Assembly: GCA_046482545.1 (NCBI GenBank)
Contig: JAWOEX010000010.1
Span: 160,001 to 224,000, forward strand
DNA length: 64,000 bases
DNA from: Candidatus Thorarchaeota archaeon
GTDB taxonomy: Archaea > Asgardarchaeota > Thorarchaeia > Thorarchaeales > Thorarchaeaceae
Direction of reading: 5' to 3'
In this document: positions 4,950 through 35,950 of the stretch, one piece after another
Layout of the letters: each line of letters begins with the position of its first letter
How positions within the stretch are numbered: the stretch's first letter is position 1
Position numbers and translations under genes: made by a program
Notes under the pieces: model-generated
Told to the model about the DNA's origin: nothing
Seen by the model: only the letters and a program-made list of their open reading frames with translations
Database searches by the model: none

Positions 4950-6113
4950 TTAGCTACGCTCCAGAATAAAGACGTTCACAAATTGTCCGCTCTGTCCAAC
5001 ATTATGCGCTAGGCCATATTGGACATCATCAATCTGCCGTGATGGTTCTTTCGCATTACCGCGCATCTGATTGAGTATCTCATAAATCATTGAAACTCCG
5101 GTGGCTCCAAGTGGATGTCCCTTACTCTTCAATCCCCCATCACAGTTGACAGGAATAGATCCATCGTGGTAGACCTCTCTATTCTCGATGAGTTCACGAC
5201 CCTCGCCCGGTTCAGCAAAGCCTAGGTCCTCATAAGCGATGAGTTCTGCTATGGTAAAGCAATCATGTACCTGAGCCATATCGATATCCTCGGGGCCTAC
5301 ACCTGCCATGTCGTAAGCAGCTTTCGCAGCACTTTTCGCTCCAGGTATTGACGTGAGACTGTCACGGTCCTGAATCATCATACTGGATGCTCCTGCGCCA
5401 ATGCCCTTAATCCAAGCTGGTTCATCACTCAGTTCCTTCGCAGTTTCTTCCTCAGCTATCACAACAGCCGCAGCACCGTCAGAAATTAGAGAACAATCGT
5501 AGAGGTTCAAGGGGCGCGCTATCGGGACAGAATTGTGCGCTTCTTCCAATGAAACCTCTCTAGGCAGATGTGCGTAGGGATTTTGAGCACCGTAATGATG
5601 GCTCTTGACAGAAATCTTCGAAAGTACCTCGTGGGGCAGGTCATATTCGGCCATGTATCTCGAGGCCATAAGTGCATAGAACGCAGGGAAGCTGATACCG
5701 TATGGATACTCCCACCGCATGTCGCCAGCCTGAGACATATACTCGGTAGCTGTGGCAGAAGAAACCCTGTTCATCTGCTCTACTCCAAGTACCAGCATAG
5801 TATCATATAGTCCAGCTGAAACCATTCCCCATGCAGCTCTCAGAGATGCTGTCCCGGTAGTACAAGCAGACTCTACCCTGAGGTGGGGTTTGTCATGTAG
5901 CCCCAAGTAATCAGCAATCAGAGCAGAACCCGCTCCTTGTCCTGTGAACTGAGAAGCGGCATATGACAGGACGGTTGCATCAATCATGTCCTGAGTGATA
6001 CCCTCGTCATAAATGGGCTTATACGCCTCAGCACTGAGCTCTCTCATTGTCGCATCCAGCCGTTTGCCAAATTTCGCATGGCCGGCCGCGACTACACCAA
6101 CTTTTCTAGCCAT
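4950..6113 (-). CDS. Thiolase (archaeal acetyl-CoA acetyltransferase type)
   Basis: ESACTTG, HDCFTIAE, GHPLGATG. Confidence 0.95.
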   Translation of the reverse strand: MARKVGVVAAGHAKFGKRLDATMRELSAEAYKPIYDEGITQDMIDATVLSYAASQFTGQGAGSALIADYLGLHDKPHLRVESACTTGTASLRAAWGMVSAGLYDTMLVLGVEQMNRVSSATATEYMSQAGDMRWEYPYGISFPAFYALMASRYMAEYDLPHEVLSKISVKSHHYGAQNPYAHLPREVSLEEAHNSVPIARPLNLYDCSLISDGAAAVVIAEEETAKELSDEPAWIKGIGAGASSMMIQDRDSLTSIPGAKSAAKAAYDMAGVGPEDIDMAQVHDCFTIAELIAYEDLGFAEPGEGRELIENREVYHDGSIPVNCDGGLKSKGHPLGATGVSMIYEILNQMRGNAKEPSRQIDDVQYGLAHNVGQSGQFVNVFILERS

Positions 6114-34599: not shown

Positions 34600-35406
34600 A
34601 TGTCTGAAACTCTGAAAACAGGAAATAAAGTCCCGCGACTGGACGTGGTCTACCGCGTCGAGTGCTCGTCATGAGGCAAAGGTCGCAGGGGGTTCTACGT
34701 TAAAGAGCTCAGCTTAGTAGATTCAGATGGGTCAGAGAATCAGCTACTACGGAATCCTGCTGGATACAAGAGCGGATTTTGGACTTCATTCATAGTGGGT
34801 GATACAACATCCATGACAGAATCGACAGAGGAGATGGATGTCTTCAAAATCGAGAAGATAGATGAAAAGGAAGGGTCAGTCAGAGTGCATCTGAAATATA
34901 CATCCGATGAAATGGAGGACCTTCACCTTGACTTCGAAGTGGATCTCTGGACCTTTGAAAAGACATTCATGCTCATGAGGTATACTACAACAAATAGGAG
35001 CTCTAAGACGCTGGAGGACTTCAAAATCTATTACTTCATGGATTTTGATGTAGGAGGACCAAAGAGCTACAAAGATGATATGGGCAAGTATGACGCAGAG
35101 AAGCAAGTGATGCATCTCTGGGATGAAAACCCTTTGCATGTAACTCTTAGCTCTTCCAGTGACCTGGATGGATGGGAAATTTCTTCGCCGACTAGGCTCA
35201 AGATACAAGAAGATAATCGAGACCTGAAGAAGAATACGACGCTCGGTCCCCGAGACATAGCAGGAGCTCTCCAATGGAATTTGGGTAGTTTAGAGACGAA
35301 TGAGAAACAATCTGTAGAAGCCCTTGTGACAGCAGCAAAGACCAAGGAAGAAGCCTTCAAGCGGATTTCTGAAGGATGGGACTGGATAAACCGGAACCTA
35401 CGATGA
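34600..35406 (+). CDS. Candidate novel selenoprotein (268 aa, CxxU at residues 22-25)
   Basis: ATG 34600 after GTGAT; MSETLKTGNKVPRLDVVYRVECSS[TGA 34672-34674]GKGRRGFYVKEL... continues in frame into ORF 34795-35406; SECIS follows. Confidence 0.85.
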
Positions 35407-35440
35407 CGCCGGTATGTAAAGCCTAGCAGTACCGGTGGAG
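35403..35440 (+). promoter_or_regulatory. Eukaryote-type SECIS element
   Basis: ATGA-CGCCGGTATGT-AAAGCCTA-GCAGTACCGGTG-GA-G: ATGA-N11-AA-N18-GA with a paired stem. Confidence 0.85.
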
Positions 35441-35512
35441 TACGGAGTTGCCCTCCGTTGTGTTCTGATTTGAAATAAAAAAGAGCAGAAGGGGTTAGGC
35501 CCCCTGTCTGCC

Positions 35513-35950
35513 TTAGTCTAAATGCTCAGCCAGCAACTTTGCGCTACCTGTAAGTCGGGCCGAAAGGCCCTTGTGCTCTGAGTTGCCGCCTTCTAGCAAG
35601 CCCATATCCATCAACGACCGAAGATTCCACTTGGCAGTCGAATATGGTACTTCTGTCTGTTCCGATAATAAATCAGCGAGACCAGTTACTGTTAGGTCAT
35701 GGTATCTCAATAAATCCGCACTCTTCTGGAGTACGTATTTCTGAGTGGCAGATAACCTCGCCTCTGCCAAATCACGGAATGCTTGTACCAAGCTGCGAAA
35801 AGTAGGCCTGTCGCTTTCCCTATGTTGAGGACAGGCTTCACAAGTGGTTGCGCAGCTGGAGAATGCACTCTCCTCGCGACTCGATTTCGTAGTCACCTTC
35901 TGCTGCGCCGACCTGACGCTGATGGGCAGGCAATGTAGACGTAGATTCAC
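35513..35950 (-). CDS. Small winged-helix protein (start uncertain)
   Basis: TVTGLADLLS...VPYSTAKWNLRSLMDMGLL. Confidence 0.7.
   Translation of the reverse strand: MNLRLHCLPISVRSAQQKVTTKSSREESAFSSCATTCEACPQHRESDRPTFRSLVQAFRDLAEARLSATQKYVLQKSADLLRYHDLTVTGLADLLSEQTEVPYSTAKWNLRSLMDMGLLEGGNSEHKGLSARLTGSAKLLAEHLD

What the first reader, a model, noticed from the sequence alone, without database searches (positions are those of the whole stretch)
35395..35450. Eukaryote-type SECIS whose core UGA is the gene's own stop codon
Seen: A-TGA-CGCCGGTATGT-AAA-GCCTA-GCAGTACCGGTG-GA-G. ATGA is followed by 11 nt, then AA, then 18 nt, then GA. CGCCGGTA pairs with TACCGGTG and the stem extends by TGT/GCA. Established: this fits the eukaryotic SECIS pattern (AUGA-N11-12-AA-N18-27-GA, tandem G.A kink-turn core), which was also described in Lokiarchaeota and differs from the methanogen SECIS. 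Unusual: the TGA of the core (35404-35406) is the termination codon. Inference: a terminating ribosome would melt the SECIS, so the distant UGA25 could be recoded while the terminal UGA is not. Read-through would add Sec plus 23 aa before the TAA.
Basis: partly seen in the sequence, partly recalled or inferred. Interest (0 to 1): 0.85.

Follow-up and report, generated by a model that had tools for sequence, protein, structure and literature searches.

The report
Asgard SECIS containing its gene's stop
The hairpin is a real, conserved selenocysteine-insertion signal of the eukaryote-like type already published for Asgard archaea, including the stop codon sitting in its core; what I did not find described is the protein family it serves.

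Summary

**The element.** Window 35403-35439 reads AUGA, a 9-bp helix, a 13-nt loop starting GUAAA, then GA. The UGA at 35404-35406 ends a 268-aa gene (34600-35406) that has one in-frame UGA at codon 25, in the motif ECSSUG.

**Orthologues.**
- Of 47 genes (the window's plus 46 orthologues, mostly Thorarchaeota MAGs), 46 keep that UGA and one has Cys.
- All 47 end on a UGA inside A/GUGA.
- All eight consensus helix pairs show compensatory changes.

**Model tests.**
- A covariance model built without the window scores the window element at 54 bits.
- A model built only from the elements of two other gene families scores it at 34 bits (E about 6e-6). It is the only hit in the window.

**The same genome.** It carries tRNA-Sec, SepSecS and EFSec. 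Its known selenoprotein gene vhuU has the same three-armed element and also stops on the core UGA, as do 20 of 20 vhuU genes in relatives.

**Novelty.** Mariotti 2016 and Huang 2024 already report stop codons overlapping the AUGA core. Earlier follow-ups in this scan reached the same verdict on other genomes. I did not find two things described:
- this CxxU protein family;
- the conserved third arm of the element.

The parts
34600..35406 (+). Selenoprotein gene served by the element: 268 aa, C22-S-S-U25, with no Pfam or NCBIfam family. The predicted fold is a galactose-mutarotase-like beta supersandwich.
   Evidence: Translation. N-terminus and frame conserved through the TGA in 46 related loci. 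No family match. AF2 pLDDT 90 and fold matches.
34672..34674 (+). UGA25, the codon read as selenocysteine. It lies 732 nt upstream of the core UGA.
   Evidence: TGA in 46 of 47 genes and TGT (Cys) in L028. Conserved residues lie on both sides, and there is no start codon before codon 66.
35392..35467 (+). Whole three-armed SECIS element: helix I, core, helix II with apical loop, hairpin 2, and the 3' strand of helix I.
   Evidence: Fold. The three-helix structure has 83% of cells paired, against 43-51% when partners are slid, and 0 of 500 shuffles reach it. RNAalifold predicts the same architecture for 20 vhuU genes.
35392..35397 (+). Helix I, 5' strand (CGGAAC). It lies within the last four sense codons of the gene and pairs with 35462-35467.
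   Evidence: The orthologues have AAGAAGA / UCUUCU or GGAAGAU / AUCUUCC at the same place.
35403..35406 (+). AUGA, the 5' half of the core. Its UGA (35404-35406) is the stop codon of the gene.
   Evidence: T, G and A are invariant in all 47 sequences. The preceding base is A in 45 and G in 2. The last sense codon is CGA, CAA, CGG or CCA.
35408..35415 (+). Helix II, 5' strand. It pairs with 35429-35436.
   Evidence: All 8 consensus pairs have compensatory changes.
35416..35428 (+). Apical loop GUAAAGCCUAGCA, with A-rich start GUAAA.
   Evidence: Loop consensus GUAAAGCnnnGCA. G[U/G]AAA is reported for Thorarchaeia frhA elements (PMC11227280).
35429..35436 (+). Helix II, 3' strand.
35438..35440 (+). 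GAG. The GA is the 3' half of the core and would form the tandem G.A pairs with G35405 and A35406.
   Evidence: A and the following G are invariant, and the first G is present in at least 90% of sequences. The non-canonical pairing itself is inferred.
35442..35458 (+). Hairpin 2, the third arm: ACGGAG / UUGCC / CUCCGU.
   Evidence: The hairpin is kept in the orthologues (GGGnAGCACCC, 86% of cells paired), in vhuU (loop GCAA) and in the small membrane-protein family. A consensus scan also flags it as terminator-like.
35462..35467 (+). Helix I, 3' strand (GUUCUG).

Best explanation
This is the selenocysteine insertion element of an Asgard (Thorarchaeia-type) selenoprotein mRNA.

Folded, it presents a kink-turn-like AUGA/GA core, a 9-bp helix and a GUAAA loop. 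These are flanked by a lower helix made from the last four codons and by a third hairpin. In that state it directs EFSec with Sec-tRNA(Sec) to read UGA25, 732 nt upstream, as selenocysteine.

The UGA of the core is in frame, so it is the gene's stop codon. A ribosome that reaches it has already unwound helix I and covers the 5' strand of helix II. No element is then left to recode it, and release factor ends the protein.

Shown: the sequence, its conservation and covariation, its likeness to the elements of other selenoprotein genes, and the presence of the Sec machinery. Inferred: kink-turn geometry, the factor that binds it, actual Sec insertion, and the reason the terminal UGA escapes recoding.
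For: - Motif and frame.
- 46 of 47 genes keep TGA at codon 25, with conserved flanks; one has Cys.
- 47 of 47 stop on the core TGA.
- Helix II: 8 of 8 pairs have compensatory changes. The full three-helix structure stands far above shuffled and slid controls.
- Model R1, built without the window, scores 54.1 bits with E = 1.3e-8 over the whole genome.
- Model R3, built from vhuU and a third family with no member of this family, scores 33.9 bits with E = 5.8e-6. The next hit in the window scores 10.7 bits. Genome-wide, R3 finds only this element and vhuU as plausible hits.
- The genome has tRNA-Sec, SepSecS, EFSec and SelD.
- Its vhuU gene (C34:77745-77894, minus strand) has the same design with the stop in the core. 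So do 20 of 20 vhuU genes in relatives, with the same three arms.
- Read-through tails range from 0 to 88 codons, so no extension is conserved.
- The published description fits: PMC4989117 and PMC11227280.
Against: - There is no experimental evidence of Sec insertion in any Thorarchaeote.
- Rfam's SECIS families give no hit.
- Model R2, built from vhuU elements alone with their gene-specific flanks, does not find the window element. R3's success therefore leans on the third family, whose selenoprotein status is itself only inferred.
- The one Cys orthologue (L028) still has ATGA, a hairpin and GA, though it has lost the GUAAAGC loop. It scores 14.5 bits, about as low as the weakest Sec orthologues.
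- Helix I is missing in one subgroup of orthologues.
Confidence: 0.9

Rival explanations
1. The core UGA is leaky. Part of the time it is itself read as Sec, giving a second, C-terminally extended protein (Sec plus 23 residues in this genome).
For: It is a UGA in a Sec-using cell, and a folded element on a neighbouring mRNA could in principle act in trans. The frame stays open for 23 codons here.
Against: The extension ranges from 0 to 88 codons among the 47 genes, so no tail is conserved. The region downstream is constrained as RNA helices, not as codons. In 13 genes the next in-frame stop is the UGA formed by the 3' half of the core.
Confidence: 0.06
2. The hairpins are a transcription terminator or mRNA-stability structure unrelated to selenocysteine, and the ATGA and GA are incidental.
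For: The element lies at a gene end. A consensus scan flags hairpin 2 with its T-rich tail as terminator-like.
Against: - Helix II is not followed by a T run.
- ATGA, GUAAA and GA are near-invariant while the stem covaries.
- The same element occurs behind three unrelated gene families that share only a conserved in-frame TGA.
- The T/C-rich tail pairs with the coding strand and covaries with it. In vhuU that strand is G/C-rich.
Confidence: 0.03
3. UGA25 is a true stop. A conserved 24-codon upstream ORF is followed by a separate protein, and no selenocysteine is involved.
For: Gene callers annotate the homologues as 229-241 aa proteins that start after the TGA.
Against: - The frame and residues are conserved across the TGA in 46 loci, and one has Cys there.
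- This genome has no start codon between codon 26 and codon 66, although residues 26-65 are conserved.
- In the model, strands 13-22 and 29-40 flank the site.
- The Sec machinery is present.
Confidence: 0.02

Closest known systems
lokiSECIS of Lokiarchaeota, especially VhuU.1 (Mariotti et al. 2016, PMC4989117)
   Same: AUGA before a 9-bp stem, an apical loop with A's at its start, and GA after the stem. The element lies at the very end of the gene. In VhuU.1 the AUGA supplies the UGA stop codon. Mariotti et al. argue that a UGA so close to the element cannot be recoded.
   Different: The loop is 13 nt and starts GUAAA, not 11 nt with AAAAA and a final G. The gene is not one of the Loki selenoprotein families. 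That paper does not mention a lower helix reaching into the coding sequence or a third hairpin.
Asgard eSECIS-like type I model and the Thorarchaeia frhA/vhuU elements (Huang, Xiao & Zhang 2024, PMC11227280)
   Same: It meets every term of their model: GA_[G/A]A core, upper stem of 7-15 bp, loop of 8-20 nt. It carries the G[U/G]AAA loop start that they report for Thorarchaeia frhA. They state that UGA stops often overlap the AUGA motif.
   Different: Their search was by homology to known selenoprotein families. It lists seven families for Asgard archaea, and this one is not among them. They describe a short lower stem next to the core, not a three-way junction.
Eukaryotic SECIS (Rfam RF00031; bound by SBP2)
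   Same: AUGA_GA quartet, unpaired A's at the top of helix II, action at a distance on an upstream UGA, and a lower helix I.
   Different: Rfam's model gives no match. Helix II is shorter. The element overlaps the coding sequence, and a hairpin is inserted between the 3' GA and helix I. The papers read here report no SBP2 in archaea.
Euryarchaeal SECIS of Methanococcales and Methanopyrus (GAA_A bulge)
   Same: Position at the 3' end of an archaeal selenoprotein gene, and the same Sec machinery.
   Different: There is no GAA_A bulge between G/C-rich stems. The core is AUGA_GA.
k-junction, a kink-turn built into a three-way junction (Wang et al. 2014, cited in PMC11227280; its content recalled from memory)
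   Same: Tandem G.A core at the foot of one helix, with a third helix inserted where the canonical helix would follow.
   Different: This is only a topological likeness. No 3D evidence exists, and it was not tested.

Membership tests
Asgard eSECIS-like element, type I (Huang 2024) | Core 5'-(A/G)UGA ... (G/A)A-3' flanking the upper stem | tested here: met
   AUGA at 35403-35406 and GA at 35438-35439. UGA and the 3' A are invariant in all 47 sequences, and the 3' G is present in at least 90%.
Asgard eSECIS-like element, type I (Huang 2024) | Upper stem of 7-15 bp with at most 2 mismatches, and an apical loop of 8-20 nt | tested here: met
   Nine pairs (35407/35408-35415 with 35429-35436/35437) and a 13-nt loop. 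All 8 consensus pairs have compensatory changes.
Asgard eSECIS-like element, type I (Huang 2024) | Unpaired adenines at the start of the apical loop (G[U/G]AAA in Thorarchaeia frhA) | tested here: met
   The loop starts GUAAA. The three A's are invariant or nearly so.
Asgard eSECIS-like element, type I (Huang 2024) | Lies at or just after the 3' end of a gene with a conserved in-frame UGA, in a genome with Sec machinery | tested here: met
   UGA25 is kept in 46 of 47 genes. tRNA-Sec, SepSecS, EFSec and SelD are present.
Asgard eSECIS-like element, type I (Huang 2024) | Resembles the elements of accepted selenoprotein genes of the same clade | tested here: inconclusive
   The model from vhuU plus a third family scores 33.9 bits, E = 5.8e-6. 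The model from vhuU alone, with its flanks, finds nothing. The architecture matches vhuU of the same genome.
Asgard eSECIS-like element, type I (Huang 2024) | Directs Sec insertion at the upstream UGA | not testable with these tools
   Needs a reporter assay, 75Se labelling or proteomics.
Eukaryotic SECIS (Rfam RF00031) | Match to the curated covariance model | tested here: not met
   No Rfam hit at gathering score in the window. No SECIS hit at E up to 10 in 35300-35560. Mariotti 2016 report the same failure for Loki elements.
Eukaryotic SECIS (Rfam RF00031) | Recognition by SBP2 | not testable with these tools
   The papers read here report no SBP2 homologue in Asgard archaea. I did not search this genome.
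Euryarchaeal SECIS | GAA_A asymmetric bulge between a G/C-rich lower stem and a 3-bp G/C upper stem | tested here: not met
   Helix II is uninterrupted and has no GAA_A bulge.
Kink-turn / k-junction | Tandem sheared G.A pairs with a sharp kink, bound by L7Ae-type proteins | not testable with these tools
   The sequence permits G35405.A35439 and A35406.G35438. The geometry and any binding are inferred.

The most novel reading that the evidence does not exclude
The Thorarchaeial SECIS is a k-junction rather than a simple kink-turn. On this reading the conserved third arm (hairpin 2, with a GC-containing loop), together with a lower helix made of coding sequence, is an obligatory part of the signal and the docking site for the still-unknown archaeal SECIS-binding factor. 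Placing the stop codon in the core is then selected, not incidental: every terminating ribosome strips and resets the complex.
Probability: 0.2. Interest if true: 0.6.

Novelty: new member of a known kind. Interest (0 to 1): 0.35.

Why it matters
The element itself confirms published knowledge and adds numbers to it. The stop-in-core layout is universal in two gene families of this clade: 47 of 47 and 20 of 20.

It is the strongest single piece of evidence that the 268-aa CxxU protein is a true selenoprotein. That family has no Pfam or NCBIfam model and is absent from the published Asgard lists. Annotators truncate it everywhere.

The conserved three-armed shape gives a concrete RNA bait for the open question of what binds archaeal SECIS elements.

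Tried and rejected
- Rfam, at gathering score and at a relaxed threshold: no SECIS hit.
- First loose descriptor scans of the genome gave 79 and 94 mostly chance hits. Only the strict GUAAA version was informative.
  - SelD is a NifS-SelD fusion with Cys.
  - All 8 MvhD/FlpD copies lack stops, as do the listed copies in 37 genomes of the family.
  - The [NiFe] large subunits have Cys or end early.
  - Only vhuU served as a comparator.
- I did not examine hdrA directly.
- The vhuU-only model R2 failed on the window.
- The weak third R3 hit, at C22:85297-85366, lies inside an ABC-transporter binding-protein gene. I rejected it.
- The weak R1 hit at C10:36018 (15 bits) was not pursued.
- The Cys-orthologue test is undecided, with only one such orthologue.
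- Liu et al. 2018 on Thorarchaeota is not held in the library.

Full report
**What is in the sequence**

The finding's description holds base for base. ATGA lies at 35403-35406. Eleven bases follow, then AAA at 35418-35420, then eighteen bases, then GA at 35438-35439. CGCCGGTA pairs with TACCGGTG.

The frame that ends on TGA 35404-35406 opens at the ATG at 34600. It contains one other TGA, at codon 25 (34672-34674), inside ECSSUG. Reading through the terminal TGA would add 23 residues before a TAA. The 96-nt region folds better than all 200 shuffles, with z = -2.7.

**The gene is a real selenoprotein gene**

The genome is 3.05 Mb and 99% complete. The window is C20:160001-224000. The Sec machinery is present:
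- tRNA-Sec at 60 bits, above Rfam's threshold.
- SepSecS next to it.
- EFSec/SelB in the same cluster.
- SelD.

Database homologues are annotated as 229-241 aa proteins that begin just after the TGA position. This is the usual sign of a miscalled selenoprotein.

In 46 loci fetched from species-representative genomes, mostly Thorarchaeota MAGs, the N-terminal 24 codons and the frame are conserved straight through the TGA. Forty-five of the 46 have TGA there, and one (L028) has TGT, which is Cys.

The protein has no Pfam or NCBIfam family. It is predicted with confidence (pLDDT 90) as a galactose-mutarotase-like beta supersandwich.

**The hairpin is conserved, covaries, and always holds the stop**

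All 47 genes, the window's included, end on TGA. It is preceded by A in 45 and by G in 2. The last sense codon is CGA, CAA, CGG or CCA.

In the alignment the UGA, the loop A's and the 3' A-G are invariant or nearly so, while the stem changes freely. RNAalifold recovers helix II, and all eight of its pairs have compensatory changes.

Its parts are:
- A lower helix I. Its 5' strand is the last few codons (35392-35397 here) and its 3' strand lies at 35462-35467.
- The core.
- Helix II with the loop.
- A second hairpin (35442-35458) inserted between the 3' GA and helix I.

For this three-helix structure 83% of cells pair. When partners are slid by one to three columns, 43-51% pair. No shuffle out of 500 reaches the observed values on four of the five measures, and one reaches it on the fifth, further pair types. 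One subgroup of orthologues lacks helix I.

**Is it the SECIS type of the clade?**

A covariance model built from the 45 Sec-type orthologues, with the window left out, finds the window element at 54.1 bits (E = 1.3e-8). It is the only good hit in the whole genome.

Among 60 relatives, the model hits 26 of 36 genomes of the same family and none of 24 outside it.

The extra hits in relatives lie behind a different gene. This is a small membrane-anchored protein with a conserved in-frame TGA in ...PDNRTU(E/D)(E/D)YEYID....

A strict descriptor finds two sites in the window's genome. One is this element. The other lies at C34:77709-77745 (minus strand), behind a 50-aa ORF with RCYDCULSCGAH. That ORF is vhuU, the C-terminal piece of the [NiFeSe] hydrogenase large subunit and an accepted selenoprotein family:
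- It is kept with exactly one TGA across the family.
- It weakly matches the C-termini of full-length large subunits.
- Its stop is also the UGA of the AUGA core. This holds in all 20 vhuU loci I examined.
- Single-sequence folds and RNAalifold both give the same three arms, with a long helix I made from the last ~25 coding bases.

A model built from vhuU alone, with its gene-specific flanks, misses the window element. A model trimmed to the core and built from vhuU plus the membrane-protein family contains no member of the window's family. It scores the window element at 33.9 bits (E = 5.8e-6), and the next hit in 64 kb scores 10.7 bits. Over the whole genome that model finds vhuU, this element, and one weak hit inside an ordinary coding region, which I reject.

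By this test the genome has two such elements, and both contain their gene's stop.

**Mechanism**

Shown:
- The element is a conserved RNA structure.
- It has the defining features of the published Asgard SECIS.
- It sits on a gene with a conserved UGA, in a genome equipped for Sec.

Inferred:
- G35405.A35439 and A35406.G35438 form the kink-turn core.
- The folded element recruits EFSec with Sec-tRNA(Sec) to ribosomes at UGA25, 732 nt upstream. The binding factor is unknown, and the papers read here report no SBP2 in archaea.
- A ribosome with the core UGA in its A site has already unwound helix I and covers the 5' strand of helix II. The signal no longer exists, and release factor acts.

No conserved read-through tail exists. 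The extensions run from 0 to 88 codons. In vhuU the Sec codon is only 72 nt from the core, so the element can serve a UGA that close but not the one inside itself.

**Rivals**

- A terminator or stability hairpin is unlikely. Helix II has no T run. The motif positions are fixed while the stem covaries. Three unrelated gene families share the element, and they have only an in-frame TGA in common. A consensus scan does flag hairpin 2 with its T-rich tail, but that tail pairs with the coding strand.
- A true stop at codon 25 is contradicted by conservation across it, by the Cys orthologue, and by the lack of any start codon before codon 66.
- Partial Sec insertion at the core UGA cannot be excluded, but it has no support.

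The one Cys orthologue keeps ATGA, a hairpin and GA but has lost the GUAAAGC...GCAG loop. It scores 14.5 bits, near the bottom of the range.

**Comparison with what is known**

- Mariotti et al. 2016 describe the lokiSECIS as AUGA, a 9-bp stem, an A-rich loop, then GA. [quoted passage not shown] They also argue that nearby UGAs cannot be recoded.
- Huang et al. 2024 state that UGA stops of Lokiarchaeia selenoprotein genes often overlap the AUGA motif. They give the type I model that this element meets, and they report G[U/G]AAA loops for Thorarchaeia frhA.
- Their search was by homology to known families and lists seven families. A 2026 review adds none for archaea. The family in this window is in neither.
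- Neither paper's text mentions a three-way junction.
- Rfam's eukaryotic model does not match, so 'eukaryote-like' is a likeness, not membership.

**Earlier notes of this scan**

I consulted these after my own analysis. They show that follow-ups on other genomes reached the same verdict, both for vhuU and for what appears to be this same family.

**Verdict**

The layout is already known. This is a new member of a known kind, serving a protein family I did not find described.

Noticed in passing
window 34600-35406: The served protein appears to be an undescribed selenoprotein family. It has CxxU on an N-terminal beta-hairpin of a galactose-mutarotase-like supersandwich (pLDDT 90; matches to GH94 and GH116 N-domains and to GalM). 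Sec is kept in 46 of 47 genes. Gene callers truncate it in every database entry I saw.
   Followed up: partly
L093 (-), L095 (-), L141-L144 (+), about 100-250 nt upstream of the model hits: Relatives carry a small single-pass membrane protein with a conserved in-frame TGA in ...PDNRTU(E/D)(E/D)YEYID... A SECIS of the same type and loop (GUAAAGCnnnGCAG) lies in its 3' UTR. It is a candidate second new selenoprotein family. The models found no copy in the window's own genome.
   Followed up: partly
G000 C34:77705-77894 (-), locus L146/L147: This is vhuU of the same genome: 50 aa, RCYDCULSCGAH, with its own three-armed SECIS and the stop in the core. The Sec codon lies only 72 nt from the core UGA. 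EFSec, SepSecS and tRNA-Sec form a cluster at C34:57358-60905.
   Followed up: yes
G000 C7:33975-36200 (-), locus L004: SelD is fused to a NifS-like cysteine desulfurase and has Cys (GLGCACK) where many Asgard SelD proteins have Sec. All listed MvhD/FlpD copies in 37 genomes of this family lack in-frame stops. The selenoproteome of known families here seems limited to vhuU. I did not examine hdrA or the Prx-like protein.
   Followed up: partly
alignment A2, columns 57-59 (window 35437-35439): When the base before the 3' GA is U, the 3' half of the core forms a second in-frame UGA 11 codons after the stop. In 13 of the 47 genes this is the next stop. It is probably a by-product of the 31-nt spacing.
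   Followed up: no
window 35486-35506 (-): GGGGCCTAACCCC followed by a T run on the minus strand looks like the terminator of the convergent 145-aa gene (35513-35950). It is separate from the SECIS.
   Followed up: no
window 4991-5029 (-): ATGA, a perfect 10-bp stem, the loop GGCCTAGCGCATA, then GA. It shares GCCTAGC with the SECIS loop but has no A-rich loop start, and model R3 did not report it at E up to 10. It is probably chance.
   Followed up: partly
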